Positions 35,091-55,916 are shown, counted from the first letter of the stretch. The stretch: 64,000 nt of DNA from an uncultured Alphaproteobacteria bacterium (GCA_958296285.1 OY282459.1:1208336-1272335), one strand, 5' to 3'. Notes: generated by a model from the letters alone, not told the origin. Numbers and translations are program-made.

Positions 35091-35111
35091 CGGGGAAATC
35101 TTGTTGAGGCT

Positions 35112-35435
35112 TCACCCGAACATGATTCGGATGAAAGCCATCGCCATAAGACCCAATATCCCTCCGCACATCCATTTTAGCAGGGTGATGTCGGCTCGGA
35201 CTTCTCCGAGGCCTTTTTGCATCTCGGCTCGGAGTTCTCCGGAGTTTTTTTCCATTTCGGCTCGGATTTCTCCGAAGCCTTTTTCCATGTCGGCTCGGAG
35301 TTCTCCGATTTGCACTTCCATACGCCGCAACCGCGCTTCTTCGCGGACGTTTTCTATGGCTTCTACGGCGGCGGTGGCTTTGGCGTCATCCACATTCGCG
35401 GCTTTGAGCGCGTCATAGACTGCGACAAGGCTCAT
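35112..35435 (-). CDS. Small tail-anchored coiled-coil protein (DUF1640-like, from memory)
   Basis: Repetitive LRADMEKGFGEIRAEMEKNSGELRAEMQKGLGEVRADI followed by the C-terminal TM WMCGGILGLMAMAFIRIMF. It sits between inverted arms R6 and R7. Confidence 0.55.
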   Translation of the reverse strand: MSLVAVYDALKAANVDDAKATAAVEAIENVREEARLRRMEVQIGELRADMEKGFGEIRAEMEKNSGELRAEMQKGLGEVRADITLLKWMCGGILGLMAMAFIRIMFG

Positions 35436-35535
35436 GGTTTTCTCCTTCGAATGGTATCTGTGTAGCAGTTTTCTGTCTCACCCGCAATTTCCTAACGAGA
35501 GAAAGAGAAAAAAGCGCCCCACGCGCCCCATGCCG

Positions 35536-35705
35536 CAAGAGCTCTTTTAGCAGGGGGGTCGGCGGGCTTTCTCGCGGGCTTGCGCTGTCGCGCTTCGCCC
35601 GCTTCGTTGCGCCACGCCCGCCGACTTTTCGGGGGGGATTCCCCCCCGATCCCCCTCTTTTTTTGGGGGGCTAGCCCCCCAAACCCCCCTCCACGGGAGC
35701 AAGCC
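35536..35705. repeat. Palindromic repeat family, locus R7 (right arm)
   Basis: CAAGAGCTCTTTTAGCAGGGGGG, the long hairpin, GGGGGGGATTCCCCCCC, GGGGGGCTAGCCCCCC, CACGGGAGCAAGCC. Confidence 0.9.
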
Positions 35706-35728
35706 AAAACTCCTATAATCATAAAACT

Positions 35729-38061: not shown

Positions 38062-39013
38062 CGCCGCTTTCGGCGCCGTTGAGGGAAACAGCCAGAGCGC
38101 CGCCTTTAAGGCGCAGGGGCGCATCGCGGCGCTCGTCCGCCAGAGGGCGGAGGCGAAGGCTTGGAGCGAAGCCGCCTCTGAGAAGGAGGGAATCGCCTTC
38201 ACGCCCTTGTCGCCGGCGATTGGCGCGGAGGTGTCGGGCGTTCATCTCTCAGAGCCGTTGGACGAGGCTCGCAAGGCGGTTCTTTATGATGGTCTTTTGG
38301 AGCATAAGGTTCTTTTTTTCCGCGATCAGGACATCACGACCGATCAGCATATCGCCTTCGCTAGGCGTTTTGGGACTTTGGAGAAGCATCCTTTCGCGGC
38401 TGTGAAGGAGGGTTATCCTGAGGTCATTCCGATCACGCATGACGCGGAGAATCCGGGGCGCGAGAATGCGTGGCATAGTGATGTCACGTGGCGGAAGGAG
38501 CCGTCTTTGGGGTCTATTTTGCGTTTGTTGGAGGTGCCGGAGACTGGAGGCGACACGCTTTTCGCTGACATGTATGCGGCGTATGATGGTCTTTCTGACG
38601 AGGTGAAGGAGAAGATTGAGGGTCGCGTGGCGATTCATGATTTCGCGGTATTTCGGGAGCGTTTGAAGAAGCGGGGCGCGTCTGAGGCTGAGATTGAGGC
38701 GTTTAACAGGGAGTATCCGAGGGTGGAGCATCCGATTGTTCGGACGCATCCTGATACGGGTCGGCGGGGGTTGTATGTGAATGTTGCGTTCACGGAGGCG
38801 ATTAGGGACATGGATGATTTGGAGGCTCAGCCTTTGTTGCGGCATTTATATGGGCAGGCGGCGATTCCGGAGTATCAGTGTCGGTTTCGGTGGCGGAGGA
38901 ATTCGGTAGCGTTTTGGGACAATCGTTGCACGCAGCATTATGCGGCGGCGGATTATTGGCCTCGTCGGCGTGTTGCGGAGCGGGTGACGATTGAGGGGGA
39001 TGCGCCTTACTGA
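38054..39013 (+). CDS. TauD/TfdA-family Fe(II)/2-oxoglutarate dioxygenase
   Basis: WHSDVTW (HxD) and ETGGDTLFADM motifs. The start MSDAAF overlaps the thiolase stop. Confidence 0.8.
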   Translation: MSDAAFGAVEGNSQSAAFKAQGRIAALVRQRAEAKAWSEAASEKEGIAFTPLSPAIGAEVSGVHLSEPLDEARKAVLYDGLLEHKVLFFRDQDITTDQHIAFARRFGTLEKHPFAAVKEGYPEVIPITHDAENPGRENAWHSDVTWRKEPSLGSILRLLEVPETGGDTLFADMYAAYDGLSDEVKEKIEGRVAIHDFAVFRERLKKRGASEAEIEAFNREYPRVEHPIVRTHPDTGRRGLYVNVAFTEAIRDMDDLEAQPLLRHLYGQAAIPEYQCRFRWRRNSVAFWDNRCTQHYAAADYWPRRRVAERVTIEGDAPY

Positions 39014-39017
39014 CATG

Positions 39018-39182
39018 CTCCTGTGAAGGGGGGGTTGGGGGGCTAGCCCCCCAAGAAAAGGGGGTTCGGGGGAAACCCCCGAAAAGTCGGCGGGCGTGGC
39101 GAAACGAAGTCCACAAGCCCGAAGGGCGCAGTGAAACGAAGCGGGCGAAGCCGAAGGCAAGCCCGCGAGAAAGCCCGCCGAC
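39018..39182. repeat. Palindromic repeat family, locus R8 (left arm, no centre)
   Basis: CTCCTGTGAAGGGGGGTTGGGGGGCTAGCCCCCC, GGGGGAAACCCCC, and the GTCGGCGGGC...GCCCGCCGAC hairpin with an enlarged loop. Confidence 0.85.
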
Positions 39183-39532
39183 CTTCCCTTATCCTATCTA
39201 AATAGGAGCGCTAACAAGGGGGACTTCTGCGATGAGATTTAACCTTGACTGGCTTTGGACCAGGCTTATTGCCCTTCCGCACAACGCGAGATACGGGCTT
39301 TTTGGGAGGGCATTTACTGCTTTTCTTTGCCATAATAATTGTCTCCTGTGAGGTTAGTTGTGGCGAGAGCGCCATGATCGTCTATATATGGGGTGGAACC
39401 CCCAGATTTTCAATGACTATTAAACAAAATAAACAAAAATTCTCATTGCCTCGTAGAGGCGAGCGCACAAGAAGACCACCGCCATCGCCCTGCATCGCGT
39501 GAATTCATGCTTTTCTGTCGATTTTTCGTATA

Positions 39533-40906
39533 ATGGACGCTATGGGAAAGGATAAGAAAAACGCCGCGATAAAATGGAAGGCTTGCGCCGCCATCTTTTC
39601 TCTATGCGCGGGGATGTTATTTCATGCCGTGCCTCCTGCTTCAGCCGACTCTTGCAAGGCGGCAACTGTTCGTGGGGACTATGAAACCGCCTATCGTTTA
39701 TGCCTGCCTCTTGCCGAGAACGGAGACGCATTGGCGCAGGGCCTTCTCGGCTGGATGTATGAGAATGGCGAGGGCGTTCGGAAGGATTATCAGAGGGCCG
39801 CGCGCTGGTATCGCAAAGCCGCCGATCAGGGAAACGCATCGGTACAGGTCAAACTCGGCTTGATGTATGACGAGGGCAAGGGCGTTCCGAAAGATTATCA
39901 GGAAGCCGCATACTGGTATCGCAAAGCCGCCGATCAGGGCGAGGCACGGGCACAATTCAATCTCGGCATTATGTATCTTAAAGGCGATGGCGTTCCGAAG
40001 GATTATCAGCAAGCCCTGCGCTGGTTTCGCAAAGCCGCCGATCAGGGCGAGGCACGGGCGCAGTACAATCTCGGCGTGATGTATGACTTCGGCAAAGGCG
40101 TTCCGAAGGATTATCAGGAAGCTTACAAGTGGTATAGTTTGGCGGGGGCAAAAGGGCATAAGAGCGCTCGTCATAATCTTAACCTGTTAGAGCGATCCAT
40201 AACGGGGGGGCAGATTGCCGAAGGTCAGAGATTGGCGCGGAACTGGAAGCCTGGCGCAAGCTCCGATGCGGAAAAGTCTCCTGGCAAGAGGCCTCCCTCC
40301 GGCAACGGATCCGGATTTCTTGTCAGCGATAAAGGTCATATTCTCACGAATGAGCATGTCGTCTCCGATTGTCGTTCTTTTCGTGTTTCGCCCCCTGGCG
40401 ATCCCGCCATTTTGCGCGGGCGCGATAAAGCCAACGATTTGGCGTTGTTGCAAGTGCCTCCGCATAAATCCATGCGCCCCGTTTCCTTTCAGGAGCGATC
40501 GGCGCAGCTCGGCAGCGATGTTCTCGCCGTGGGCTACCCTTTGCGCGGAAAGGCAGGACGCGGCTTGAATATCACAAAAGGCACAATAAGCGCTCTTTCG
40601 GATGGCGATGGCGACTCGCGCCTTCTCCAATTCACAGCCCCCGTTCAGCCCGGCAATAGCGGCGGGCCTTTGCTGGACGAGTCGGGACTAGTCGTTGGCG
40701 TCATTGTGAGCCGATTGGAGGAAACGGCGGGCGGGCGTCCTGTGCAGAATGTTAACTTCGCTATCCGCGCTAAAGTGGCGCGCGCATTTCTAGACAGCAA
40801 CTCTGTCCTCTATGAAAGCGGAAAAGGCGGTTGGCTGTCGCCAAAAGCAGAGACGGTCGCCGAGAATGCCCGCGCCCATACCGTCATGGTGGAGTGCTAT
40901 CAATAA
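39533..40906 (+). CDS. Secreted Sel1-repeat / trypsin-like (S1, DegP-type core) serine protease fusion
   Basis: The N-terminal half has Sel1 units, paralogous to 31515..32111. The C-terminal half has GSGFLVSDKGHILTNEHVV (His), NDLALLQV (Asp) and GNSGGPLLD (Ser). Confidence 0.8.
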   Translation: MDAMGKDKKNAAIKWKACAAIFSLCAGMLFHAVPPASADSCKAATVRGDYETAYRLCLPLAENGDALAQGLLGWMYENGEGVRKDYQRAARWYRKAADQGNASVQVKLGLMYDEGKGVPKDYQEAAYWYRKAADQGEARAQFNLGIMYLKGDGVPKDYQQALRWFRKAADQGEARAQYNLGVMYDFGKGVPKDYQEAYKWYSLAGAKGHKSARHNLNLLERSITGGQIAEGQRLARNWKPGASSDAEKSPGKRPPSGNGSGFLVSDKGHILTNEHVVSDCRSFRVSPPGDPAILRGRDKANDLALLQVPPHKSMRPVSFQERSAQLGSDVLAVGYPLRGKAGRGLNITKGTISALSDGDGDSRLLQFTAPVQPGNSGGPLLDESGLVVGVIVSRLEETAGGRPVQNVNFAIRAKVARAFLDSNSVLYESGKGGWLSPKAETVAENARAHTVMVECYQ

Positions 40907-40921
40907 GCCACTCGCTCGCAT

Positions 40922-41060
40922 GAGCTCTTGCGATGCAGGGGGGTCGGCGGGCTTCTCGCCTCGCTACGCTCGGCTTCGTTGCGCCACGCCCGCCGACCTT
41001 TCGGGGGGATTCCCCCCGACCCCCCCTTTCTCAAGGGGGGCAAGCCCCCCTTGACCCCCC
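40922..41060. repeat. Palindromic repeat family, locus R9 (right arm)
   Basis: GAGCTCTTGCGATGCAGGGGGG, the long hairpin, GGGGGGATTCCCCCC, GGGGGGCAAGCCCCCC. Confidence 0.9.
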
Positions 41061-41419
41061 TATTTTTGGTGCTTCCCATAGCGAGGCTGATCCACAGCAA
41101 CCTTATCCAAAACAGTCTCCCAAAGATGATCCTTAAGCGTCTCAAGAGAAATCTCGCCAGCCTCAATTTTCTTGCAAAGACGGCGATTCGCCTCCTCCAG
41201 CGACAGCCCATCCTCTAACCCCAAAAGGCGTTGAAGACGCGCCTTCTCCCTCTCCCGCGCCGCCTCGCCCGAAACAATCTCGCGCATGACAATCTCTAAA
41301 ACATTGACGGCAACCAGCGCATGAAAACGACTCTGATCCTTAAGATCAGGTATCAATTTCTCTTTGATGAAATCACGCGCCGCTCTAAGAAGCGCTTCGG
41401 AAGAAGGCGGATCAAACAT
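41060..41419 (-). CDS. Small helical hypothetical protein partnered with the upstream phosphotransferase
   Basis: 119 aa. It overlaps the stop of 41412..42398. I recall similar small proteins (DUF6285-like) downstream of APH-type kinases, but this is unverified. Confidence 0.5.
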   Translation of the reverse strand: MFDPPSSEALLRAARDFIKEKLIPDLKDQSRFHALVAVNVLEIVMREIVSGEAAREREKARLQRLLGLEDGLSLEEANRRLCKKIEAGEISLETLKDHLWETVLDKVAVDQPRYGKHQK

Positions 41420-42398
41420 CGCCGCCGCCCCCGCGCGGCGCGAGCAGATTCAGAAGATTGATCTCCGTCTCCGAAACGCGCCTGCCAATCGCCGCCTGCT
41501 CCAAAGCGCCAGACTCGTTGAACGCCGCCATCATCGCGCAAATGACGCCCCATTTCAACGTTCCCAAAAGACGCCAAAAATCAAGACGCTTCCGATCCAC
41601 CATCTCACCGCGCGCGCGCTCATAAGAAGCAATCAGAGAAGGCAGATCGCCAAAGCCTCCCACAATTTTCTCCATCACGCCAAAACGCCAAGACGCGCCG
41701 CAGAGCCAGCCCAAATCCTCCAACGGATCGCCGAAATGCGCGAGCTCCCAATCCAAAACAGCGCGAATCCCCTCCTCGCCGACAATGAAATTCCCATTGC
41801 GGAAATCTCCATGCACGAGACGCGGCGGCGTCTCTTCGGGCATATTCTCCTCAAGCCATCGGAAAGCGAGCGCCATGACAGGGCGCGGATGCCCGATCGC
41901 GTCATGAATCTCCCGATATTTGCGCGCCTCCTCGCGCGCGCCGGAGACAGGCAGAGGCGGCATATTTTCAGGCGTCAGCTGATGGATCTTGGCAAGAATC
42001 TCGGCGCATTGTCCTGTCATCTCGCGCCGCGCGCGCCGATATCGCGGATCGCGCAAGATTTTCCGCGCGATCGTCTCGCCTTCAATCCGCGCCATGATGA
42101 AGCCCGAACCCTGCTCCGAAGATTGAAGCCGATGACGCAATGTCGGAACGGGAATCGCGGTATCAGAGAGCGCTTCAAGAAGGACGGCTTCCTCGTCCAG
42201 CGAAAGAGACGCGCCGCTCCCGGCATGAGAGGCGCGGCGAAGGATCAAGCGCTCGCGCTTGCCGTTTTGGCAGGCGTCAAAAGCGACGGTCTCCTTGCTC
42301 GCGCCCCCGGAAAGACGGCGCAGATTCGCCACTGTCGCTCCCTTCATTTCCTCCTCCAGCAGGAGGCGGAGGGAATCGGAATCGCTGTCCTGCCCCAT
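41412..42398 (-). CDS. Aminoglycoside-phosphotransferase-fold (APH/ChoK family) kinase
   Basis: VHGDFRNGNFIV catalytic loop and the DWELAHFGDPLEDL motif. The long + strand ORF 41364..42422 is its antisense shadow. Confidence 0.8.
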   Translation of the reverse strand: MGQDSDSDSLRLLLEEEMKGATVANLRRLSGGASKETVAFDACQNGKRERLILRRASHAGSGASLSLDEEAVLLEALSDTAIPVPTLRHRLQSSEQGSGFIMARIEGETIARKILRDPRYRRARREMTGQCAEILAKIHQLTPENMPPLPVSGAREEARKYREIHDAIGHPRPVMALAFRWLEENMPEETPPRLVHGDFRNGNFIVGEEGIRAVLDWELAHFGDPLEDLGWLCGASWRFGVMEKIVGGFGDLPSLIASYERARGEMVDRKRLDFWRLLGTLKWGVICAMMAAFNESGALEQAAIGRRVSETEINLLNLLAPRGGGGDV

Positions 42399-43252: not shown

Positions 43253-45358
43253 CTAGCCTGAGCGGAGGGTTCGCGCGGCTTCGTCTCGTCCGAAAAGATA
43301 GAGCAGAAGACGCAGCGCTTCGCCGCGCTCGGATTTTAGTTGCGGATCCTCTTGGAGAATGCGAGCCGCCTCGTCATGCGCCCGCGCGAAGAGATCGCTT
43401 TGGGCGGCTGGGTCTCCGAGCAGAAAACTGACCGCGCCGCTCTGCTTCGTTCCGAGAATCTCGCCGCCGCCCCTGAGGCGCAAATCCTCTTCGGCGATGC
43501 GGAATCCGTCTTCGGTCTCGCGCATGATGTCCAAACGCGCCCGCGCCGTTTCGCCGAGCGGCGCGCGGTAAAGCAGAAGGCACGCCGAATCCTTCTCGCC
43601 CCGCCCGACCCGCCCCCGCATCTGATGCAGCTGCGCCAAGCCGAAGCGCTGCGCGTCCTCTATGACCATCACGGTCGCTTCCGCGACATCCACGCCGACC
43701 TCTATGACGCTTGTCGCGACAAGGAGCTGGATTTTTCCCTGCTGAAAAGCGGTGAGCGTTCGGTCTTTTTCGTCTCCCGCCATGCGTCCATGCACGAGAC
43801 CCGCGCCGCAATCCAAGATCGCCGACAAATGCCGATGCCGATCGCTGGCGGCGGTGAGGGCAAGCGCCGCATCCGCGCCTTCCTCGCCCTCCTCCCCGAC
43901 AAGAGGGCATATCCAATAGACGCGCCGCCCTTGGCTCGCGGCGCGGCGGACGGCTTCCACGACATCGTCCAAACGCTCTAGCGGAAGCGCCCGAGTCGCG
44001 ACAGGACGCCGCCCCGGCGGCTTCTCGCGCAGCGCCGACATATCCATATCGCCATAATGGGCGAGCGCCAAGGTTCGCGGGATCGGGGTCGCCGTCATGA
44101 CGAGCATATCCACGCTTTTGCGCCCTTTGCCGGAGAGCGTCAGCCTCTGATGGACGCCGAAGCGATGCTGCTCGTCAATGACGCAGAGACCCAAATCGCG
44201 GAACGCGACATGTTTTTGGAAAAGACTATGGGTGCCGGCGACAAGCCGCGCCATGCCGGTCTGAATGTCGGTCAGGACGCGGCGCTTCTCCGCCGCCGAT
44301 TGTCGCGCCGTCAGGAGCGTGAGAGGCGCGCCGATCTTTTGGCAGAGCGGCAGAAGCGTCTTAAAATGCTGACGCGCGAGGATTTCGGTCGGCGCCATAA
44401 TCGCCGCCTGCGCTCCGGCTTCCACGGCGTTGAGCATCGCCAAAAAGGCGACGATTGTCTTGCCGCTTCCGACATCCCCTTGCAGAAGACGAAGCATCCG
44501 CATTGGCTGTCCCATATCGCCGTCTATTTCGGCGATCGCCGCCTCTTGCGCTGATGTCAGCGCGAAGGGGAGGGCGCTCATCGCTTTCTCCCGAAGCGCC
44601 GCCGCTTTCGGGAAAATCCGCCCCGGCAGACGGCGCATCCATTGCCGCGTCAGGATAAGCGCGAGCTGGCTCGCCAAATACTCATCATAGGCGAGGCGCT
44701 CGCGCGCCGGCGAGGAGGGCGACAAATCCTCTTCATCTTGAGGCTCATGCGCTTTCAAGACGGCCTCTTTCCATGGCGGCCATTTCTTTTCGCTCATCCA
44801 ATCCGCCGAGAGCCATTCGGGAAGATCGGGCAGGGATTTCAGCGCTCCCCGCGCGATCTTCGCATAGTGCCGAGAGGTGATCCCTGCCGTCACGCGATAG
44901 ACGGGCTCAAAGGCGGGCATTTCGTCATATTCTTGGCGGGTTAGAATATAGTCGGGATGCGCCATTTGTCGGCGTTCTTGGTAGGCTTGAATTGTTCCTG
45001 ATATGAAGCGCGTTTTGCCTGGCGGCAGGACGCGGCGCAGATAATCGGCATGGGCGCGGAAGAAGACGAGTTCCATTTCGCCGGTTTCGTCATGGCATGA
45101 GACGCGATAGGGTTGGCGTCCGAAGGGGCGGGGGGTTTTATGCGCGCCGACTTCCACTTCCAGCGTGGCGAGGGTGCCGGGCTCGGCGTCCGCGATTTTC
45201 ACGCGCCGCGATCGGTTGATGAATCCTGTTGGCAGGCGCCAGCATAGTGAGATCAGGGTTTCGCCTGCCAGTTCGGCGATAATTTTTTTCGCGCGGGGGC
45301 CGATGCCGGGGAGGCTTTGGGTTGGGGTATAGAGTGGGAAGAGGATTTGGGGGCGCAT
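43253..45358 (-). CDS. recG: ATP-dependent DNA helicase RecG
   Basis: GDVGSGKT, DEQHRFG and TATPIPRT motifs. The preferred start is MRPQILF at 45358; the track ORF runs on into repeat R10 (to 45541). Confidence 0.9.
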   Translation of the reverse strand: MRPQILFPLYTPTQSLPGIGPRAKKIIAELAGETLISLCWRLPTGFINRSRRVKIADAEPGTLATLEVEVGAHKTPRPFGRQPYRVSCHDETGEMELVFFRAHADYLRRVLPPGKTRFISGTIQAYQERRQMAHPDYILTRQEYDEMPAFEPVYRVTAGITSRHYAKIARGALKSLPDLPEWLSADWMSEKKWPPWKEAVLKAHEPQDEEDLSPSSPARERLAYDEYLASQLALILTRQWMRRLPGRIFPKAAALREKAMSALPFALTSAQEAAIAEIDGDMGQPMRMLRLLQGDVGSGKTIVAFLAMLNAVEAGAQAAIMAPTEILARQHFKTLLPLCQKIGAPLTLLTARQSAAEKRRVLTDIQTGMARLVAGTHSLFQKHVAFRDLGLCVIDEQHRFGVHQRLTLSGKGRKSVDMLVMTATPIPRTLALAHYGDMDMSALREKPPGRRPVATRALPLERLDDVVEAVRRAASQGRRVYWICPLVGEEGEEGADAALALTAASDRHRHLSAILDCGAGLVHGRMAGDEKDRTLTAFQQGKIQLLVATSVIEVGVDVAEATVMVIEDAQRFGLAQLHQMRGRVGRGEKDSACLLLYRAPLGETARARLDIMRETEDGFRIAEEDLRLRGGGEILGTKQSGAVSFLLGDPAAQSDLFARAHDEAARILQEDPQLKSERGEALRLLLYLFGRDEAARTLRSG

Positions 45359-45390
45359 GGTGTTATCATAGTGCATAGGAGCTTGAAGGT

Positions 45391-45694
45391 GCAGGGGGGT
45401 GTGGGGGGCTAGCCCCCCGCGAAAAGGGGGTTCGGGGGAAACCCCCGAAAAGCGCGTGGGTGGGGTGGGGAAAAAAGCATTTGCGAGCAAACGCAGTGCA
45501 GCGAGCAAATGCGACCCCACCCACGCGCCCCCTGCTCGCAAGAGTTTTTGCGATGCAGGGGGGTCGGCGGGCTTTCTCGCGCACTTGCGCTACGCGCTTC
45601 GTGCGCTTCGTTTCGCCACGCCCGCCGACTATTCGGGGGGATTCCCCCCGACCCCCCCTTTTTCGCGGGGGGTCTCCGACCCCCCACACCCCCC
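45391..45694. repeat. Palindromic repeat family, locus R10 (complete element, both arms)
   Basis: Left arm with a W-type core hairpin (GCGTGGGTGGGGT...), the centre CTGCTCGCAAGAGTTTTTGCGATGCAG, and a right arm with a G-type core hairpin (GTCGGCGGGC...). Confidence 0.9.
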
Positions 45695-45724
45695 TCTTTT
45701 GGAGCTTCAATGGTAAAATGCACC

Positions 45725-46009
45725 ATGGAACCTCTCCGAAAACGCCTCCGCTACAGAGCAGCCCGCCGCGGAACAAAAGAAATGGACCTGATCCTCAACA
45801 ACTTCGCCAACAAAAACCTCGCCAACATGAACCCAACCCAACTCCGCGCCTTTGACGACCTCCTCGCAATCGCCGACCCAGATTTGGAAAACTATCTCAA
45901 AAAAAACCTCCTCCCCCCTTCCATAAAAACAGAGAACCACGCCCTCAAAACAATGCTCCAATCGCTCAAGAAAGATTATCTGTCAGGAGACTTCGCCAAA
46001 AATGTCTGA
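45725..46009 (+). CDS. sdhE: FAD assembly factor SdhE (DUF339)
   Basis: LRYRAARRGTKEMDLIL contains the RGxxE motif. The recG / sdhE-mfd neighbourhood supports it. An alternative start lies at 45710. Confidence 0.75.
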   Translation: MEPLRKRLRYRAARRGTKEMDLILNNFANKNLANMNPTQLRAFDDLLAIADPDLENYLKKNLLPPSIKTENHALKTMLQSLKKDYLSGDFAKNV

Positions 46010-49000
46010 CGCGCCGCTCTCATGGTCTGATCTGACAGGAGAAGCTTTTCCTAATCTGCCCAATGAAGGCGCTCTGAAAATCGGCGGCGCGGCGCAGCCT
46101 CTGGACGCGCTCTTTGTCGCCGAAGCGCTGAAAACCAACAGAATCACAAGCGCGCTCTGGATCGTCAGCGGCAACGCCAGACTCGCCGCGCTTGCCAAAA
46201 CGCTGGACATCCTCGCCCCCAATCTCCAAAAAATCACGATCCCCGCCTGGGACTGCCTCCCCTATGATCGCGTCTCGCCCGATCCGACAAGCGCCGCCGA
46301 AATCGCCGCAGCCCTCGCCGAAATCGCGCAGGACGCCAAGACCGCTCCGCTTATCCTCGCCGCCGCCCCGATGGTCTCGCGGAAGATTCCGCCCAAAAAC
46401 ATCATGGCGGAAGGCTCTCTGACGATAAGAAAAGGCGAGAGGCAGGACAGAGCCTCCATCATCCGCTTTCTTGAGCGATGGGGTTTTAGGCGCGCGGCGT
46501 CTGTCGCGCAGCTCGGAGACTATGCCCTTCGCGGGAGCATCATAGACGTCTATCCGCCCCGCGCCGCGCCGACACGGATAGATTTCTTCGGCGATGAGGC
46601 GGAGACCCTCCGCCATTTTGACGTGGCAAGCCAGCGCACGCTCGCCGAAACGGAGAGAATCACAATCCGCGCCGCCAGCGAAGTCAGGCTGGACGAAGAA
46701 ACCGCCAAAAACTTTCGGACAGCATGGCGCGAGATTTTCGGCGTCAAGGCGGCGCGCGAAACTTTTCCGACAGCGATCGGCGAGAGAATCCGCGAACCGG
46801 GCATGGAGCATAATCTCCCTCTTTTCTATCAAACCATGACGACGATCTTCTCCTATATCCCTCAAAATGCCGCGATTTTTCTAGATCCCGACAGCGAAGA
46901 GGCGGCAGAGCGGCATCGCGATCTCATCCGCTCCTGCCATGACGAGCGCGCGCGACTCGCCAAACACGCCGAAGAAGAGGAGGCATGGCGACCCCTTCCT
47001 CCCAAAAAACTCTGGCTGGACGAAAAACTATGGCGGCAGGCGCTTCAAGCGCGGCGCGGTCTGACGTTCAGCCCTTTCGCCGCGAGAGACGGAATCGCCG
47101 ATTTGGGAGGGCGAGCCGTTCCGGATTTCTCCGCGCATCGCATAAAGAGGGAAGGGCTTCTTCAAGCGCTCCGCGAGCGCGCCCAAGAAATTTGGAAAAC
47201 AGGCGGGATGGTTCTCCTCGCGGCGCGAGACGAGGCGGCATTGAATCGTCTTGAAAACACGCTGGAAAAAGAAGCCGCGCTCCCATCGGCGCGGACGGAT
47301 TGGACGCGCCTCGCCTCTCTGCCTCCGAAAACTGTCGGTCTGATCGCGATCCCGCTAGAAACAGGCTTTCGCGTCAGGCGTCTGACGCTGCTGACGGAAG
47401 GCGATCTCTTCGGACATAAAAGACGCCGCCCTATCGCGATCTCGCGCGCGGACGCGAAAGACGTTCTCCGCCGCTTTCAATCGCTGATGCCCGGCGATCT
47501 GATCGTCCATCTGGAACATGGAGTCGGACGCTTCCACGGACTCCGCCGCCTCCGCGTCTCCGAAGACGAGCATGAATGTTTTGAACTCGTCTATCAGAAT
47601 GACGACCGCCTGCTGCTGCCTGTGGAAAACGCCGAACTCCTCTCGCGCTATGGCGGAGACGGCGAAGCCCCGCTGGACAAACTCGGCGCGGCGGGATGGC
47701 AGGCGCGTCATGCGCGAGTGAAAAAGCGCGTCCGCGAGATGGCAGGGGAGCTTATTCGGTTGGCGGCGGAGCGCAGCGCCTCGCAGGCGGCGCGCTTGAC
47801 CCCGCCCCAAGGACTCTATGACGAATTCCGCGCCCGCTTCCCCTATGACGAAACCCCCGATCAGGCGCGAGCCGAAGAAGAGATGATCGCCGATCTCTCG
47901 GCAGGAAAGCCGATGGATCGTCTGATTTGCGGGGATGTCGGCTTCGGCAAGACCGAGCTCGCGCTCCGCGCCGCCTTCATTGTGGCGATGGCGGGGCGGC
48001 AGAGCGCTATCATCACGCCAACGACCCTCCTCTGCCGACAGCATCTGGAGACGTTCCGCCTCCGTTTTGAAGGCTTGCCGATGAAAATCGGCCATGTGTC
48101 CCGACTCGTCTCGCGCAAGGAGATTGACGCCGCCCGCCGTCAATGCCGAGACGGAACGATGGACATCGTCATCGGAACCCATGCGCTTTTGTCGGAAGAG
48201 ACGGCGTTCCGCGATCTGGGGCTTCTTGTCGTGGATGAAGAGCAGCATTTCGGGGTCGCCCATAAAGAGAGGCTGAAGGCGCTCAAGGAGAAGAAGGAGA
48301 ATGTCCATGTGCTGACGCTGACGGCGACTCCGATCCCGCGCACGCTGCAGCTGGCGCTCTCCGGAGCGCGGGATATGTCCCTGATTGGGACGCCGCCGCG
48401 CGACCGCATCTCGGTGCAGAGTTTCGTCGGCCCCTTTGACGCGATGACGCTCCGCCGCGCCATGATCCGCGAGAAGGCGCGGGGAGGGCAGAGTTTTATT
48501 GTCGTCCCGCGCATATCCGATCTGCCTCGGATGGAGCGCTTTTTAGAAACCCATCTCGCCGACCTCAAGAGAATCGCGCTTCACGGACGCATGCCCCCTA
48601 AAGAGATGGAGCGCGGCATCGGCGCGTTCTATGACGGAAACGCCGATATTCTCCTCTCCACCCATATTGTGGAATCCGGGCTGGACATCCCCGCCGCCAA
48701 CACGATCATCATTTATCGGTCGCATATGTTTGGCTTGGCGCAGCTGCATCAGCTGCGGGGGAGGGTCGGGCGATCCGATCGGCAAGCCTATGCCTATTTC
48801 ACGCTGCCGGCAGGCGCTCTGACAGGCAATGCCGAGCGCAGATTGTCGGCGCTTCAGGCGGTCGATTCTTTGGGCGCGGGCTTCTCATTGGCGGCGCAGG
48901 ATTTGGATCTGCGCGGCGCAGGGAATCTCCTCGGCGCCGAGCAGTCCGGACATATCCGCGAAGTCGGCTATGAACTCTATCAGCAGATGCTGGAAGACGC

Positions 49001-52111: not shown

Positions 52112-52869
52112 TCCTGTCGGCGCTTTTCGGTCTGACGGCGCTTGTCTATGCGAGCGTGGGCTTTGGCGGCGGATCCACCTATATCGCGCTTCTGGCGATC
52201 AGCGGCGCGGATTATCGGATGATTCCGATTGTCGCGCTCTCCTGCAACCTTTGCGTTGTCGCCGGAGGCGTCATGCGCTTCGCCGCCGCAGGGCATTTGG
52301 ATATTTTGAAGATTCTGCCGCTTGTGATCGTCTCGGCGCCGATGGCGTGGGCCGGCGGCTCTCTCATTGTCTCGGAGGCGCTTTTTCTCGGTCTCTTGGG
52401 GTGGACGCTTCTCGCCGCGTCTCTTTTAACATGGCGGGGCGGGGCGCTTGATAGATCGCCGATTGTTAAAGGCGGCAAGACGGCTCTTCTTCTTGCGAGC
52501 GGCGGGGTTGGGTTTTTGTCGGGACTTGTCGGGATTGGCGGCGGGATTTTCCTCAGCCCTCTCCTTCATATCGCGCGGTGGGCGAAGCCGAAGGAGATTG
52601 CCGGAACGGCGGCGCTCTTTATTTTTGTCAATTCGGCGGCGGGGTTGATCGGACAGATCGGGAAAGGGTCTGGCGCGATTTATGGCGAGGCTCTGGGTTT
52701 CGCGCCTTTGCTGATCGCGGTGATTGTCGGCGGACAGATCGGCGCATTGTGGGGGGCGCGCCGCGCCGCGCAGGCGCGTCTCCGCAAGATCACGGCGGCG
52801 CTTGTTTTTCTCGTCTCTTTGCGCTTATTGTGGCGGTGGGGCGGACTCATCGGAATCTCGGCGTTATGA
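52057..52869 (+). CDS. TauE/SafE-family anion exporter-like membrane protein
   Basis: Polytopic, with two GxGGG-type motifs (VGFGGGS, VGIGGGI). The start is uncertain; TTG at 52057 overlaps the upstream gene. Confidence 0.65.
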
Positions 52870-53849
52870 AGAGGCTGACAGACAATTTCGGTCGCCGCAT
52901 TGATTATTTGCGTCTTTCGGTCACGGATCGCTGCAATTTGCGATGCGTGTATTGCATGCCGAAGAGGATGCGATTTCTTCCGAAGAGGGATGTTCTATCC
53001 ATTGAGGAGTTGGAGGCGCTGGCTTCGGCTTTCATTCGGCGGGGCGTCAGGGCTGTGCGGATCACCGGCGGCGAGCCTTTGATGCGCGGCGGCGTGATGC
53101 GATTGTTTCGCGCTTTGTCCCGTCATTTGCGCCGAGGGGATTTGGACGAGATCGCTTTAACGACGAATGGGTCGCGTCTTGCGTCTTTTGCCGGCGCTTT
53201 GAGGGATTGCGGCGTGGAGCGCGTCAATGTTTCTTTGGACACGTTGAAGCCTGATATTTTTTCGGCGCTGACGCGGGGCGGGTTGCTTTCGGAGGTTTTA
53301 TCGGGGCTTGAGGCTGCTGACAAAGCGGGGTTGAGGGTTAAGATTAATCTTGTTGTTCTTGGCGATGCGAATCTTGATGAGGTTCCGGAGGTTATTATGT
53401 GGGCGCATGGTCGGGGTTATGCGGTTTCGTTGATTGAGGTTATGCCGTTGGGGGATGTGGGCGAGGATCGTTTGGCGCAATATGTTCCGTTGGATTTTGT
53501 TCGGCGGCGTTTGTCTGAGCGATGGGTTTTGGAGGCGGAGGGTTATCGGAGTTTGGGGCCGTCGCGTTATGTTCGGGTGAGGGAGACGGGGGGGTTATTG
53601 GGTTTTATCACGCCGTTGACGGAGAATTTTTGCGCTTCGTGCAATCGGGTTCGGGTGAGTTGTGTTGGGGAGTTTTTTGGGTGTTTGGGTCGCGGGGTTT
53701 CTGTGGATTTGCGCGGGGCGTTGCGCGGGGGATTTTTGGATGAGGCGATAGACAGGGCGTTATTGGGGAAGATGTGGGGTCATGATTTTCGGATTGGTGG
53801 GGGAGTTGGGGTGCCTGTGGCGCGGCATATGTCGGTGACGGGGGGCTAG
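52866..53849 (+). CDS. moaA: GTP 3',8-cyclase (molybdenum cofactor biosynthesis)
   Basis: Radical-SAM CNLRCVYC motif and a C-terminal CASCNR cluster motif. ATGA overlap with the upstream gene. Confidence 0.9.
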   Translation: MKRLTDNFGRRIDYLRLSVTDRCNLRCVYCMPKRMRFLPKRDVLSIEELEALASAFIRRGVRAVRITGGEPLMRGGVMRLFRALSRHLRRGDLDEIALTTNGSRLASFAGALRDCGVERVNVSLDTLKPDIFSALTRGGLLSEVLSGLEAADKAGLRVKINLVVLGDANLDEVPEVIMWAHGRGYAVSLIEVMPLGDVGEDRLAQYVPLDFVRRRLSERWVLEAEGYRSLGPSRYVRVRETGGLLGFITPLTENFCASCNRVRVSCVGEFFGCLGRGVSVDLRGALRGGFLDEAIDRALLGKMWGHDFRIGGGVGVPVARHMSVTGG

Positions 53850-53890
53850 GCGGCTCCCGTTGAGGGGGGTTTGGGGGGCTAGCCCCCCAA

Positions 53891-53916
53891 GAAAAACCAA
53901 GCGGGCGAAGCCCGCT
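53891..53916 (-). terminator. Intrinsic-terminator-like hairpin in the R11 left arm (minus-strand sense)
   Basis: On the minus strand it reads AGCGGGC-TTC-GCCCGCT followed by TGGTTTTTC. It would end transcripts of the SBP gene after they cross the element. Confidence 0.45.
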
Positions 53917-54088
53917 ATAGTCGGCGGGCGTGGCGAAACGAAGCGAGCGTTAGCGAGCGAGAAAGCCCGCCGACCCCCCTGCTAGAAGAGCTCTTGTAAG
54001 CAGGGGCGGTTGGGGGGTGGGTCGCTTTTCCTCGTTTCGCTACGCTTCACTCGGAAAAGCTTTTTTCCCACCCCACCCCCCAACCTAT

Positions 54089-54118
54089 AGGCTGCCTTAC
54101 GGCAGCCTTGGTTTTTTT
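54089..54118 (+). terminator. Intrinsic-terminator-like hairpin in the R11 right arm
   Basis: AGGCTGCC-TTAC-GGCAGCCT followed by TGGTTTTTTT, downstream of moaA on the same strand. Confidence 0.5.
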
Positions 54119-54143
54119 GGGGGGCAAGCCCCCCAAACCCCCC

Positions 54144-55916
54144 TCAACGGGAGCCCCCCTCAAGCCACCACAAATCCGCCGCCGTCCCATATAACGAACC
54201 CCTCTCAGGAAACCCAACCCAATCCCATGCCGCTAACCACTGATCCCCCGAATAAAACAACGGAATCACATAAAACCCCGACAACAAAACCCGATCCAAC
54301 GCCCTCACCGCATCCCGAAAACCCCCACGATCCTCAGCCCCAACCAACGCCCCTATCAAAAAATCCACAGCCCCAGACCGAACCCCCGCATAATTCCTGC
54401 TCCCCTCAAACCCCGCCGCCTCACTCCCCCAATAAAAAGCCTGCTCATTCCCAGGCGACAACGATACCCCCCAACGATAAAAAATCATGTCAAAATCAAA
54501 ATCCCTCATCCGACGCTCCCCCTGCGCCGAATCCACAAAACGAACCCGAGCCTCCACCCCCGCCAACCGCAACTGCCGCGCGAAAACTAAAGCCAACCGC
54601 TCCTCATGACGCCGAACACACAAAATCTCAAAACGAAAAACCTCGCCCCCAACATCCCGAAGAACGCCGCCCTCTAAAAACCACCCCGCCTCCCCAAAAA
54701 GCGCGAGCGCCGCCCTCCGACCCGCCCGATTGTGCCGACCCTCCGAAACAGGCGGACGATAACCGCCCTCCAAAATCTCCGGCGCAACCTCATCAGCAAA
54801 AGACGCAAGCAAAGCGCGCTCGCCAGCGCTCGCCCCCAACCCATGAGACGATAAATCCGAATTGGCGAAAAAACTCCCAATCCGCCGATACTTCCCATGA
54901 AAAAGATGCGCATTAATCCACTCAGCATCCAACAAAAGCGAAAGAGCCTCGCGGACGCGCCTGTCCGAAAAAATCCCCCGCCGCGTGTTGAAAACAAGAC
55001 CCCACATGCCAGACGGCGACCCCGTCGGAATCTCCTTCAACAGAATGCGTCCGCGATCCCTCGCCGGCGCGTCATATTGAACAGCCCAGCGCGAAACATC
55101 TCGCTCCGCGCGCGCGTCAATCTCGCCCGCCTTAAAAGCCTCAAAAGCCGAACCCTCATCACGAAAATAACGATACAAAACCCGATCCGCATTAAATCGC
55201 CCGCGATTGACAGGCAAATCCTTCCCCCAATAATCCAAATCGCGCTGATAAAGAATCTTCTCGCCCGGCGCGATCTCGGCAACCCGATACGCCCCGCTCC
55301 CTAAAGGCGTTTTAAGAGAGGTCTCGTCAAACCTATGCTTCGTGAAATAAGCCCGCGACAAGATCGGCATCAAACCCATAATGAGCGGCATCTCCCTGTC
55401 GCTCCCCGCCTTGAAAACAAAACGGACGCCCCGCGCGCCAACCTTCTCCATCCGAGCGATCTTGCCATAATAAAAACGATGATTCGGACGACCCTTCTCC
55501 CGAAGCGTCCGCGCCGAAAACAAAACATCCTCCGCGCGGACAGGAGAGCCGTCAGAAAAACGCGCCTTCGGATGAAGCGTGAAAAGAACGGAGCTTCTGT
55601 CCGGCGGCGTCTCAATCGTCTCGGCAAGAAGACCATAAAGCGTGAAAGGCTCGTCCCATCCGCGCGCCATCAGACTCTCATAGACAAATTCGCGCAAGCC
55701 GGCGGCAGGCTTCCCCCGAATGATGAAAGGATTGACGCTGTCAAACGTCCCGCTGCGCGAAAGATGAAGCGTCCCGCCTTTCGGCGCGTCAGGACGAACA
55801 TAGGGAAAATGAGAGAAGCCTCTCTGATAAAGCGGCGCGCCATGCATGGCGATCGCGTGAGAATCGGCGAGAGCGCCCCCGGCGTCCGCCGTCAGAAAAG
55901 CGCAGGCGAGCGCCAA
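54144..55916 (-). CDS. Family-5 extracellular solute-binding protein (orphan ABC SBP, YejA-like)
   Basis: 590 aa, SBP_bac_5-like throughout. No permease or ATPase gene is adjacent. The last codons and the stop lie inside the R11 terminal repeat. Confidence 0.8.
   Translation of the reverse strand: MALACAFLTADAGGALADSHAIAMHGAPLYQRGFSHFPYVRPDAPKGGTLHLSRSGTFDSVNPFIIRGKPAAGLREFVYESLMARGWDEPFTLYGLLAETIETPPDRSSVLFTLHPKARFSDGSPVRAEDVLFSARTLREKGRPNHRFYYGKIARMEKVGARGVRFVFKAGSDREMPLIMGLMPILSRAYFTKHRFDETSLKTPLGSGAYRVAEIAPGEKILYQRDLDYWGKDLPVNRGRFNADRVLYRYFRDEGSAFEAFKAGEIDARAERDVSRWAVQYDAPARDRGRILLKEIPTGSPSGMWGLVFNTRRGIFSDRRVREALSLLLDAEWINAHLFHGKYRRIGSFFANSDLSSHGLGASAGERALLASFADEVAPEILEGGYRPPVSEGRHNRAGRRAALALFGEAGWFLEGGVLRDVGGEVFRFEILCVRRHEERLALVFARQLRLAGVEARVRFVDSAQGERRMRDFDFDMIFYRWGVSLSPGNEQAFYWGSEAAGFEGSRNYAGVRSGAVDFLIGALVGAEDRGGFRDAVRALDRVLLSGFYVIPLFYSGDQWLAAWDWVGFPERGSLYGTAADLWWLEGGSR

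What the first reader, a model, noticed from the sequence alone, without database searches (positions are those of the whole stretch)
52300..55900. Mirror-symmetric strand-composition gradient centred on repeat R11 (G+T-rich to its left, C+A-rich to its right)
Approaching R11 from the left (TauE-like gene and moaA), the + strand becomes progressively G+T-rich and C+A-poor. Leaving R11 to the right (SBP gene), the + strand is C+A-rich, and the bias fades by about 55.5-55.9 kb.
Hand counts: 53765-53849 has about 43 G against 10 C; 54161-54260 has about 11 G against 43 C.
On both sides, therefore, the strand whose 3' end points toward the palindrome is G/T-rich. The encoded proteins still read as ordinary MoaA and family-5 SBP. 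The bias must lie largely at synonymous sites, which looks mutational.
Loss of C and A with gain of T and G on one strand is the signature expected from deamination of single-stranded DNA. The geometry fits 3'-tailed resection intermediates spreading from recurrent breaks at a long palindrome. In E. coli, long palindromes are cleaved by SbcCD and repaired through RecBCD. Another possibility is selection for co-oriented Chi-like G/T-rich words.
The same pattern is visible by eye at R1/R2, R3, R5, R6/R7, R8/R9 and R10. I do not know of a described repeat family with such local skew around each copy.
Basis: partly seen in the sequence, partly recalled or inferred. Interest (0 to 1): 0.85.

Follow-up and report, generated by a model that had tools for sequence, protein, structure and literature searches.

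The report
Mutation gradients flanking palindromic repeats
Every copy of a hairpin-rich repeat in this small bacterial genome is flanked on both sides by about 1.5 kb of DNA that has steadily lost C and A from the strand pointing into the repeat, a mutational footprint like that seen around meiotic DNA breaks in humans and one I could not find described for bacteria.

Summary
The + strand reaches GC skew +0.55 / AT skew -0.5 left of the repeat at 53.85-54.15 kb and -0.62 / +0.5 right of it. That is 5-6 SD from element-free background.

The same flip occurs at 13 of 15 repeat flanks in the window. At third codon positions (G+T-A-C)/n falls smoothly from +0.81 next to a repeat to 0 by about 1.6 kb.

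The sign follows repeat geometry, not gene orientation. Two-fold sites show that C>T and A>G drive it. Comparison with a syntenic relative adds C>G. That relative has neither repeats nor skew at the same gene junctions.

Among three strains that are 98-99% identical, these changes are 2.5x more frequent per site on the 'into' strand within 800 nt (p=0.0005). Forward and reverse counts are equal, so the process is ongoing and at equilibrium.

I found no sequence-context preference and no Chi-, KOPS- or G4-like word enrichment. The repeats are also rearrangement hotspots.

Best reading: the 3'-ended strand next to each repeat is repeatedly exposed and recopied, by break plus resection or by replication gaps. 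Spontaneous deamination alone is unlikely, because A>G nearly matches C>T.

The parts
53853..54154 (.). It has terminal inverted repeats GCTCCCGTTGAGGGGGGTTTGGGGGGCTAGCCCCCCAAGAAAAACCAAG / its complement. These enclose a string of separate stem-loops and a central palindromic core, CCCCCCTGCT-AGAAGAGCTCTTGTA-AGCAGGGG.
   Evidence: Inverted repeat I13: 59 nt, 86% complementary. ssDNA fold of -122.6 kcal/mol, z=-13. Sequence.
52300..53852 (+). Left gradient, covering the 3' part of tauE plus moaA. The + strand is G+T-rich and C+A-poor, and the bias rises toward E9.
   Evidence: (moaA K at codon positions 1/2/3 = +0.41/+0.32/+0.79).
54155..55900 (-). Right gradient, covering the SBP_bac_5 gene on the - strand. 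The - strand is G+T-rich, fading by about 55.6-55.9 kb.
   Evidence: SBP5 K at positions 1/2/3 = +0.55/+0.19/+0.85.
17457..18146 (.). Repeat E1. It has about 184-nt arms and a cargo ORF (17698-17967; 89 aa, TM plus coiled coil) bracketed by two copies of the core GAAGAGCTCTTGCGAG.
   Evidence: The interior is inverted in strain C. Strain B has no cargo and different left-arm modules.
16400..17456 (+). Left gradient of E1, over the 3' end of cysNC.
   Evidence: K3 +0.75.
18147..19100 (-). Right gradient of E1, over the 5' end of glmU. glmU is on the + strand, so here the coding strand is C+A-rich.
   Evidence: K3 -0.85 on the coding strand.
26897..27126 (.). Repeat E2. Only its left flank is skewed. 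The right flank is a replaced, variable segment.
26200..26896 (+). Left gradient of E2, over the SDR gene.
31302..31527 (.). Repeat E3. The left flank (GFA gene, 5' end) is skewed and the right flank is weak.
32900..33066 (.). Half-element E4 (core plus right arm), with a short right-hand gradient to about 33.3 kb.
34929..35706 (.). Repeat E5, carrying a cargo ORF on the - strand (107 aa; 11-aa repeats plus a C-terminal TM).
34000..34928 (+). Left gradient of E5, over the 3' end of the thiolase-like gene.
35707..36050 (-). Right gradient of E5, over the 5' end of a Sel1 gene on the + strand.
39017..41066 (.). E6 (left arm, 39017-39190) and E7 (core plus right arm, 40907-41066) bracket a Sel1/trypsin-like cargo gene (39533-40906). 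Strain B has one cargo-less element at this site.
38200..39016 (+). Left gradient of E6, over the 3' end of TauD.
   Evidence: K3 +0.80.
41067..41800 (-). Right gradient of E7, over DUF6285 and the 3' end of APH.
45385..45707 (.). Repeat E8, lying between recG and sdhE.
45000..45384 (+). Left gradient of E8, over the 5' end of recG. recG is on the - strand, so its coding strand is C+A-rich here.
45708..46400 (-). Right gradient of E8, over sdhE and the 5' end of mfd, both on the + strand.

Best explanation
Each copy of a hairpin-rich, terminally inverted repeat is a recurrent site of strand interruption. Most likely the folded element breaks and is repaired by recombination.

From the element outward, the strand whose 5' end lies at the element is removed and later resynthesised. 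The distance covered is roughly exponentially distributed, with a mean of about 0.4 kb. Meanwhile the complementary strand, whose 3' end points into the element, persists as single-stranded template.

C and A on that exposed strand are miscopied, either because they are damaged or because the fill-in synthesis is low-fidelity and escapes mismatch repair. This fixes C>T, C>G and A>G on that strand. Repeated over evolutionary time, it drives both flanks to a mirror-symmetric G+T excess. Purifying selection holds this back only at non-synonymous sites.

Shown: the polarity, spectrum, gradient, dependence on the element and ongoing nature.
Inferred: the single-stranded or resynthesis intermediate.
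Speculative: the trigger (a double-strand break) and the enzymes involved.
For: Geometry. 13 of 15 flanks are G+T-rich on the strand running 5'->3' into the element. Third-position K declines from +0.81 to about 0 over 1.6 kb. The implied excess of C>T over its reverse fits 14.8*exp(-d/362 nt), and A>G fits 6.6*exp(-d/457 nt).

Orientation. K3 is +0.44 to +0.85 (+0.67 to +0.85 in six of the seven) for genes whose 3' end abuts an element. It is -0.48 to -0.85 on the coding strand for glmU, GFA, Sel1, recG and sdhE, whose 5' ends abut.

Transitions. At two-fold sites T/(C+T) is 0.78 against 0.50 in background, and G/(A+G) is 0.91 against 0.56, with the mirror image in outward genes.

Polarisation against the element-free syntenic relative L096, within 600 nt of an element. 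At codon position 1: C>T 50:13, A>G 45:11, C>G 34:9. At position 2: 27:11, 40:11, 17:7. There is no such asymmetry beyond 1.5 kb. L096 has no elements and no skew at the same junctions.

Ongoing process. In three-strain polarised differences within 800 nt, C>T+A>G+C>G number 31 of 1470 sites, against 27 of 3198 for the mirror changes (OR 2.53, p=0.0005). OR is 0.96 at 801-1600 nt and 0.94 beyond 1600 nt.

Context. No neighbour preference was found.

Recombinational activity at the elements, among strains 1-2% apart: cargo gain or loss, cargo inversion, arm-module exchange, and a replaced flank at E2.

Precedent. Human meiotic DSB flanks (+/-2 kb) show C>N and A>N on the 3'-tailed strand, mainly C>T, C>G and A>G (PMC7615360). 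E. coli DSBs give local mutation hotspots through resection and gap-filling synthesis (PMC3607216).
Against: - No physical break is demonstrated, and the genome's repair gene set could not be inspected.
- The elements are mosaics of short hairpins with 48-59-nt terminal inverted repeats, not the long perfect palindromes known to be cut by SbcCD.
- Nine elements in about 40 kb suggest a few hundred per 1.73-Mb genome. Even about 1% breakage per element per generation would then mean several breaks per generation.
- Overall strain divergence near elements is only 1.2x background, so the process is a modest, directional addition rather than gross hypermutation.
- A>G is nearly as strong as C>T, which does not fit plain spontaneous deamination.
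- Cargo DNA inside elements shows no skew.
- The correlation with arm complementarity is weak (Spearman 0.75, p=0.054, n=7).
Confidence: 0.45

Rival explanations
1. Replication gaps without breakage. The very stable G/C hairpins fold on each template strand and block the polymerase, and synthesis restarts downstream. The uncopied template always lies 5' of the block, which is the strand running into the element. Both flanks therefore spend extra time as single-stranded daughter-strand gaps and are later filled in with low fidelity.
For: - It gives the same polarity on both sides whichever way the fork travels (inference from polymerase direction).
- It gives the same kb scale. Classical daughter-strand gaps are about 1 kb (own knowledge).
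- It needs no long perfect palindrome, so it fits the hairpin mosaic.
- It acts once per replication at every copy without lethal breaks, which suits the high element density.
- The gradient and spectrum are equally well explained.
Against: - It does not by itself explain the cargo insertions, inversions, arm exchanges and flank replacement at the elements.
- No stalling data exist.
- Ordinary REP/BIME-type hairpin repeats in other bacteria are not known to carry such flanks (own knowledge).
- The bare G6/C6 hairpin in other genomes has no skew.
Confidence: 0.27
2. Double-strand degradation from a break back to a stochastic stop, followed by resynthesis of the 3'-ended strand toward the element by repair synthesis that escapes mismatch repair. 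Ordinary G.T-type misincorporations (dGTP opposite T, dTTP opposite G) then load the new strand with G and T.
For: - It accounts for a context-blind, transition-dominated spectrum with A>G comparable to C>T. This is typical of uncorrected polymerase errors (own knowledge).
- The exponential tract length fits.
- The E. coli model of RecD-dependent resection plus gap-filling synthesis is a precedent (PMC3607216).
Against: - C>G asymmetry is not a typical polymerase transition error.
- No Chi-like stop signal was found.
- It requires breaks, so it carries the same burden problem as the main model.
Confidence: 0.12
3. Programmed enzymatic editing. A DNA deaminase, or a pair acting on C and A, or another mutator is recruited to the elements and acts on one strand of the flanks.
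For: - Amplitude is large at synonymous sites (K3 0.8).
- Both C and A are affected.
- The family appears confined to this lineage, so a lineage-specific factor is conceivable.
Against: - There is no neighbour-base preference for either C or A loss, whereas known DNA deaminases have one (own knowledge).
- The targets are housekeeping genes with no obvious benefit from diversification.
- No candidate gene lies in the window.
- The recent rate excess is modest.
Confidence: 0.06
4. Selection for polar G/T-rich signals that converge on the element, such as Chi-like sites, RecA-loading GT-rich DNA, KOPS-like guide words or G-quadruplexes.
For: The geometry is the same as Chi orientation relative to a break, or KOPS orientation relative to dif (own knowledge). 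GGGG runs number 118 on the into-strand against 6 on the opposite strand.
Against: - No word is enriched beyond composition. The best 5- to 7-mers with an expected count of at least 2 are 2-6x over expectation, known Chi sequences are absent or unremarkable, and KOPS, G4 and G-run counts equal those in phase-preserving shuffles.
- About 90% of third positions are affected, which is implausible for selection on sparse words.
Confidence: 0.04
5. A by-product of gene orientation, transcription or protein composition, or an assembly artefact.
For: At the focal locus both genes converge on the repeat, and TauE is a T-rich membrane protein.
Against: - The sign reverses on the coding strand for genes that start at an element.
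- The bias is strongest at third positions and at two-fold and four-fold sites.
- The pattern is present in three independent assemblies with intact reading frames.
- Orthologues in the relative are unbiased.
Confidence: 0.01

Closest known systems
Strand-asymmetric mutagenesis around meiotic double-strand-break hotspots in humans (Hinch et al. 2023, PMC7615360)
   Same: C>N and A>N occur on the strand that is single-stranded after 5'->3' resection, with the mirror changes on the other side. The main types are C>T, C>G and A>G, and the extent is 1-2 kb (compared).
   Different: The human pattern is seen as rare de novo mutations and polymorphisms at short-lived, PRDM9-defined hotspots. Here it has reached compositional equilibrium (K3 0.8) in a bacterium, at fixed repeat copies, inside housekeeping genes. 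No break has been shown here.
Kataegis: break-associated, strand-coordinated mutation showers caused by AID/APOBEC on resected DNA (PMC3628087, listed)
   Same: Strand-coordinated changes at C that switch strand across the breakpoint, on a kb scale.
   Different: Kataegis is TC- or WRC-context specific and restricted to C. Here there is no context preference and A is also affected. Here the pattern results from evolutionary accumulation, not single-event clusters.
Break-proximal mutation hotspots in E. coli (Shee et al. 2012, PMC3607216) and SbcCD/RecBCD processing of chromosomal palindromes (PMC4752480, PMC8386832, listed)
   Same: Bacterial breaks produce local, distance-decaying mutagenesis through resection and resynthesis, and palindromes are natural break sites.
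   Different: These are laboratory systems. The hotspot range is 2-60 kb and no compositional skew was described in the passages retrieved; the palindromes used were engineered (own knowledge). Here the scale is about 0.4 kb mean and the elements are hairpin mosaics.
Replication-associated GC/TA skew of bacterial chromosomes
   Same: The same kind of bias: a keto (G+T) excess on one strand, attributed to asymmetric single-strand exposure and copying.
   Different: Replication skew is chromosome-scale, with one switch at the origin and one at the terminus, and a typical amplitude of 0.2 or less (own knowledge). Here there are at least 7 local flips in 64 kb, with amplitude 0.5-0.6 overall and 0.8 at third positions.
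Intergenic mosaic palindromic repeats (REP/BIME of enterobacteria, RIME of rhizobia, MITE-like elements)
   Same: A multi-copy, intergenic, modular array of stem-loops with terminal inverted repeats and no transposase of its own.
   Different: There is no sequence similarity to any collection searched and no Rfam hit. The element carries cargo genes at a palindromic core. To my knowledge, no such family has been reported with flanking compositional gradients.

Membership tests
Break/resection-associated strand-asymmetric mutagenesis | C (and A) changes lie on the strand whose 3' end faces the centre, with the mirror changes on the other side | tested here: met
Break/resection-associated strand-asymmetric mutagenesis | kb-scale decay with distance from the centre | tested here: met
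   K3 falls from 0.81 to 0 over 1.6 kb. The exponential fit gives 360-460 nt.
Break/resection-associated strand-asymmetric mutagenesis | A physical double-strand break and 5'->3' resection at the centre | not testable with these tools
   Only indirect evidence: rearrangements at the elements among strains.
Kataegis (AID/APOBEC type) | TC or WRC context preference, with changes restricted to cytosines | tested here: not met
   C is depleted in all neighbour contexts and A is also depleted.
Replication-associated skew (origin/terminus) | One chromosome-scale sign change at the origin and one at the terminus | tested here: not met
   At least 7 local + to - flips in 64 kb, each centred on a repeat.
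Transcription-associated strand asymmetry | The sign follows the transcribed strand of each gene | tested here: not met
   The coding strand is G+T-rich when the 3' end abuts an element and C+A-rich when the 5' end abuts.
SbcCD-cleavable long palindrome | A long, near-perfect inverted repeat with a short spacer | tested here: inconclusive
   E9 has a 59-nt, 86% terminal inverted repeat with 192 nt of separate hairpins between the arms. E1 has about 184-nt arms with about 330 nt of cargo.
SbcCD-cleavable long palindrome | Presence of sbcCD and recBCD/addAB in the genome | not testable with these tools
   Only about 70 kb of the 1.73-Mb genome could be read.
Chi-site or KOPS-like polar word arrays | A specific oriented oligomer enriched beyond composition | tested here: not met
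Mosaic palindromic intergenic repeats (BIME/RIME/MITE-like) | Multi-copy, intergenic, with terminal inverted repeats and modular stem-loops | tested here: met
   Nine copies or half-copies and the fold.
Mosaic palindromic intergenic repeats (BIME/RIME/MITE-like) | Target-site duplication and a cognate transposase (for example RAYT) | tested here: inconclusive
   No duplication is visible at the E1, E5 or E9 borders. No transposase lies in the window. The rest of the genome was not seen.

The most novel reading that the evidence does not exclude
The repeats are fixed, programmed break or nick sites. They would be docking sites for gene cassettes, with a palindromic core AAGAGCTCTT, served by an undiscovered nuclease or recombinase. 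That would make them a bacterial counterpart of meiotic recombination hotspots. Because the sites do not move, their flanks have reached mutational equilibrium and record the polarity, tract length (about 0.4 kb) and error spectrum of break repair in a natural population.
Probability: 0.2. Interest if true: 0.9.

Novelty: new variant of a known kind. Interest (0 to 1): 0.8.

Why it matters
If this is confirmed genome-wide, it would be the first case I know of in which a bacterial repeat family imprints a local, mirror-symmetric compositional gradient on its neighbours.

- It shows that single-strand exposure or repair synthesis at defined sites can dominate sequence evolution of adjacent housekeeping genes, including their codon usage and partly their amino-acid composition.
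- It gives a natural read-out of tract length and error spectrum for break or gap repair in an uncultured lineage.
- It offers a way to date repeat insertions, since flanks next to recently acquired DNA are flat.
- It warns that local skew, odd codon usage and long spurious ORFs near repeats can have a mutational origin.
- It makes a long-standing question directly testable with a transplantable 300-bp element: how much mutation in nature comes from repair of structure-induced lesions?

Tried and rejected
1. Elevated SNP density near elements. The first estimate was 48.6/kb. It was retracted because it came almost wholly from one replaced allele right of E2 (27133-27610). Without that segment the density is 16.7 against 13.6/kb.
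2. Gene orientation, transcription and protein composition as causes. Rejected.
3. C<->G / A<->T transversions as the main route. Rejected, because two-fold sites shift strongly. C>G contributes.
4. A motif-specific deaminase signature. None found.
5. Chi-like words, known Chi sequences, KOPS, G4 motifs and G-runs. None is above composition.
6. Scaling with arm complementarity. Inconclusive.
7. Searches for the element elsewhere:
   - The bare 25-nt hairpin motif has 14 single hits in unrelated genomes, with no skew.
   - Longer end motif: 0 hits in metagenome contigs.
   - Inner module: 0 hits in genome and metagenome contigs.
   - No plasmid hit and no Rfam family.
   - The sequence appears in no paper.
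8. Taxonomic placement. MoaA and GlmS reach only 43-64% identity to scattered Alphaproteobacteria.
9. Sequence beyond the window's right end. The proteins tried were not on record.
10. Literature searches for a bacterial precedent. None found.

Full report
OBSERVATION

The described gradient is real and strong. In 200-nt windows the + strand has GC skew +0.54 to +0.56 and AT skew about -0.5 at 53.4-53.8 kb. It flips to -0.62 / +0.51 at 54.2-54.4 kb. GC skew fades to about zero near 52.1 kb and 55.6-55.8 kb, while AT skew on the right stays positive beyond 55.9 kb.

I use K=(G+T-A-C)/n as the measure. In 307 windows lying more than 2.2 kb from any repeat, K has sd 0.092 and never exceeds 0.35. 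The focal windows are at +0.51 and -0.57, which is 5-6 SD. The window as a whole has no skew (G 18645, C 18608). The flanking genes are TauE, MoaA and a family-5 solute-binding protein.

THE REPEAT

The centre (53853-54154, 'E9') belongs to a family with nine copies or half-copies between 17 and 54 kb.

- Each copy has a terminal inverted repeat (GCTCCCGTTGA-GGGGGG-TTT-GGGGGGCTAGCCCCCC-AAGAAAAA...).
- Inside are several independent G/C-rich stem-loop modules in varying combinations.
- At the centre is a palindromic core (...CCCCCTGCT-AGAAGAGCTCTTGCGAG-CAGGGGG...).
- E9 folds as single-stranded DNA at -122.6 kcal/mol (z=-13).

Some copies carry cargo next to the core. E1 holds an 89-aa TM/coiled-coil ORF. 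E5 holds a 107-aa repeat protein. A Sel1/trypsin-like gene lies between E6 and E7. The family has no Rfam match. It was not found in plasmids, genome contigs, metagenome contigs or the literature. The bare 25-nt hairpin occurs singly in unrelated genomes, where the flanks are unbiased.

THE BIAS IS TIED TO THE REPEAT, NOT TO THE GENES

I oriented every flank on the strand that runs 5'->3' into the element. On that basis 13 of 15 flanks are G+T-rich, and the pooled skew decays to zero by about 1.25 kb.

The focal genes converge on E9, but other genes start at an element: glmU, a GFA gene, a Sel1 gene, recG, and sdhE/mfd. In those genes the coding strand is C+A-rich, with third-position K of -0.48 to -0.85. 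In genes that end at an element, third-position K is +0.44 to +0.85 (+0.67 to +0.85 in six of the seven). Background K is about 0.

Pooled third positions give a smooth gradient. K3 is +0.81 at 1-100 nt, 0.54 at 301-400, 0.30 at 801-900, 0.09 at 1401-1500, and about 0 beyond 1.6 kb. I converted this to the excess of the forward over the reverse substitution ratio. C>T then fits 14.8*exp(-d/362 nt) and A>G fits 6.6*exp(-d/457 nt). Positions 1 and 2 are shifted less. The proteins still read as normal family members to their ends.

WHICH CHANGES

At two-fold degenerate sites only transitions are silent, and these sites shift strongly. On the into-strand T/(C+T) is 0.78 against 0.50 in background, and G/(A+G) is 0.91 against 0.56. 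Outward genes show the mirror image. So C>T and A>G on the into-strand are the main route.

Four-fold sites go from G .36, T .11, C .45, A .08 to G .53, T .29, C .14, A .03. That includes a small extra purine gain.

C and A are depleted whatever their 5' or 3' neighbour.

RELATIVES

The window comes from a 1,733,000-bp contig, apparently a small genome. Two further strains exist at 97.6-99.5% nucleotide identity. The lineage is otherwise poorly sampled. GlmU has one relative at 59% identity and the rest are at 50% or below. GlmS and MoaA reach 43-64% identity to scattered Alphaproteobacteria.

The 59% relative (L096) is syntenic: gyrA...cysNC-glmU-glmS...thiolase-like-thiolase-TauD-recG-sdhE-mfd. 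It has no such elements and no skew flip at the orthologous junctions.

I polarised window codons against L096 on the into-strand, within 600 nt of an element.

- Position 1: C>T 50:13, A>G 45:11, C>G 34:9.
- Position 2: C>T 27:11, A>G 40:11, C>G 17:7.
- Beyond 1.5 kb these asymmetries vanish.

Protein identity is only slightly lower near elements (0.66 against 0.69).

A 21-kb element-free stretch of a sister strain shows no flip.

IS IT STILL HAPPENING?

I polarised three-strain differences by majority rule. My first pass suggested a 3.6-fold higher SNP density next to elements. That was wrong. It came from one roughly 480-nt segment right of E2 where the window strain carries a replaced allele: about 60 undirected differences. 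This is also a flank with no skew.

With that variable region excluded, density is 16.7/kb within 800 nt against 13.6/kb elsewhere. The strand asymmetry is nevertheless clear.

- C>T 18/811 against its mirror G>A 16/1826 (OR 2.6, p=0.008).
- A>G 10/659 against T>C 8/1372 (OR 2.6, p=0.04).
- Pooled with C>G: 31/1470 against 27/3198 (OR 2.53, p=0.0005).
- OR 0.96 at 801-1600 nt and 0.94 beyond 1600 nt.

Forward and reverse raw counts are equal (31 against 27). That is what a composition at mutational equilibrium predicts. A decaying relic would show an excess of reverse changes. The counts are small, and majority-rule polarisation with three strains cannot separate mutation bias from biased fixation.

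RIVALS BASED ON SELECTED WORDS

- No oligomer stands out in the flanks. The best 5- to 7-mers with an expected count of at least 2 are 2-6x over a second-order expectation.
- One 8-mer, TTCGGCGA, occurs 11 times against 1.0 expected.
- Known Chi sequences are absent or unremarkable.
- KOPS-like words, G4 motifs and G-runs occur as often as in shuffles that preserve phase-specific composition.
- With about 90% of third positions affected, selection on sparse signals is implausible.

THE ELEMENTS ARE RECOMBINATIONALLY ACTIVE

The strains are only 1-2% apart, yet they differ at the elements in several ways.

- E1 has cargo in two strains but not the third. Its interior is inverted in one strain, and its left arm uses different modules in another.
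- E6/E7 with a 1.7-kb cargo in the window is a single cargo-less element in strain B.
- The DNA abutting E2 has been replaced in the window strain.
- Next to that lies a 2.1-kb low-GC insert bounded by a duplicated tRNA 3' part.

Flanks made of such recently arrived DNA are flat. This fits a slow, cumulative process.

MECHANISM

What is shown is a local process centred on the element that is independent of gene orientation, blind to sequence context and still ongoing. It converts C to T or G, and A to G, on the strand whose 3' end faces the element. Its intensity decays exponentially over a few hundred nucleotides.

The simplest class of explanation is that this strand is repeatedly left single-stranded, and then copied, next to the element.

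Route 1: break and resection. A break in the folded element followed by 5'->3' resection gives exactly this geometry. It is the accepted explanation for the same asymmetry (C>N and A>N; chiefly C>T, C>G and A>G; +/-2 kb) around human meiotic breaks (PMC7615360). In E. coli, breaks create local mutation hotspots through resection and gap-filling synthesis (PMC3607216). The rearrangements at the elements favour this route, and I take it as the best explanation.

Route 2: stalling and gaps. A polymerase reading any template 3'->5' and stalling at a hairpin leaves the template 5' of the block uncopied. That is again the into-strand, on both sides and for either fork direction. This route needs no long palindrome and no breaks, which suits a dense family of short, very stable hairpins.

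I cannot separate the two routes from sequence alone.

Chemistry. From my own knowledge of deamination rates, about 2e-10 per second for C in single-stranded DNA is ample to explain C>T at around 1% events per generation. Adenine deaminates roughly 50 times more slowly, yet A>G is within about two-fold of C>T here. Low-fidelity or mismatch-repair-exempt fill-in synthesis, other single-strand lesions, or an enzyme must contribute.

COMPARISON AND NOVELTY

The phenomenon works like break-associated strand-asymmetric mutagenesis at meiotic hotspots and in kataegis, and like replication skew in miniature. It fails the defining tests for three known categories:

- replication skew, because there are many local flips;
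- transcription asymmetry, because the sign does not follow genes;
- APOBEC-type kataegis, because there is no context preference and A is also affected.

The repeat resembles BIME/RIME/MITE-like mosaic elements in architecture but not in sequence. I found no report of a bacterial repeat family with such flanks. I therefore class it as a new variant of a known kind of process.

LIMITS

- Only about 70 kb of one lineage was available, giving 15 flanks.
- Only 58 polarised transitions and C>G events lie within 800 nt of an element.
- Synonymous sites are saturated against the only outgroup.
- There is no physical evidence for breaks or gaps.

Noticed in passing
window 28562-30744: A 2.1-kb low-GC (about 46%) insert is bounded by an exact 75-bp direct repeat (28572-28646 and 30670-30744). 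The repeat is the 3' part of a tRNA gene (tRNAs called at 28562-28634 and 30660-30732). It looks like a small integrated island with attL and attR.
   Followed up: partly
window 27133-27610: Directly right of repeat E2 the window strain differs from both sister strains at about 60 sites in about 480 nt, with no directional pattern. This is a replaced or recombinant allele abutting the element, in the Lambda_Bor lipoprotein region. This flank has no skew.
   Followed up: yes
window 17698-17967 and 35115-35435 (- strand): The cargo ORFs inside repeats E1 and E5 encode small membrane-anchored coiled-coil or repeat proteins. One is 89 aa. The other is 107 aa, with 11-aa repeats GELRADMEKGF encoded by a 33-bp tandem repeat. 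No Pfam family was found for the E1 region ORF tested, which lay on the opposite strand. The E1 cargo is inverted in strain C and absent in strain B.
   Followed up: partly
window 39533-40906; also 31515-32111 and 35729-36775: Sel1-repeat genes with 108-bp internal tandem repeats occur next to or inside elements. One is fused to a trypsin-like protease. They are similar to one another in inverted orientation (81% over 406 nt between 31674-32079 and 39601-40006). The 39.5-40.9 kb gene is absent in strain B.
   Followed up: partly
window 48997-49101 (inside mfd): A 15-bp tandem repeat (TTCGCCAAAATGGCG, about 5-6 units) lies within the mfd coding region. Mfd is 1201 aa in the window strain and 1196 aa in the two other strains. 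That difference is consistent with one repeat unit.
   Followed up: no
window 60850-61212: There is a second 15-bp tandem repeat array (AGGGGCTCGCCCCGC-like units), with a related pair 288 bp upstream.
   Followed up: no
window 56468-58486 and 58550-60028: Two adjacent paralogous MFS transporter genes share 72-74% nucleotide identity over several hundred bp. The first is fused to an APS-kinase domain.
   Followed up: no
loci L001-L014 (for example L004 5212-5236, L013 5066-5090): The exact 25-mer GGGGGGTTTGGGGGGCTAGCCCCCC occurs in Rhodobacterales genomes inside a different conserved unit of about 50 nt (...TCATCTTN6-8AAATATCCT|25-mer|AA). It also occurs in a cyanobacterial and a Lachnospiraceae MAG. 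From 4^25 possible 25-mers against about 1.2x10^12 searched positions, I reckon this is far more often than chance allows. It has no flanking skew there.
   Followed up: partly
window 52578-53849, 54017-54916 and similar: A-poor or T-poor skewed flanks contain few stop codons. Long spurious ORFs therefore open in several frames, and real genes appear extended upstream. Examples are the 423-aa ORF against the 327-aa MoaA, and a 299-aa + strand ORF opposite the SBP gene. This is a trap for gene callers.
   Followed up: partly
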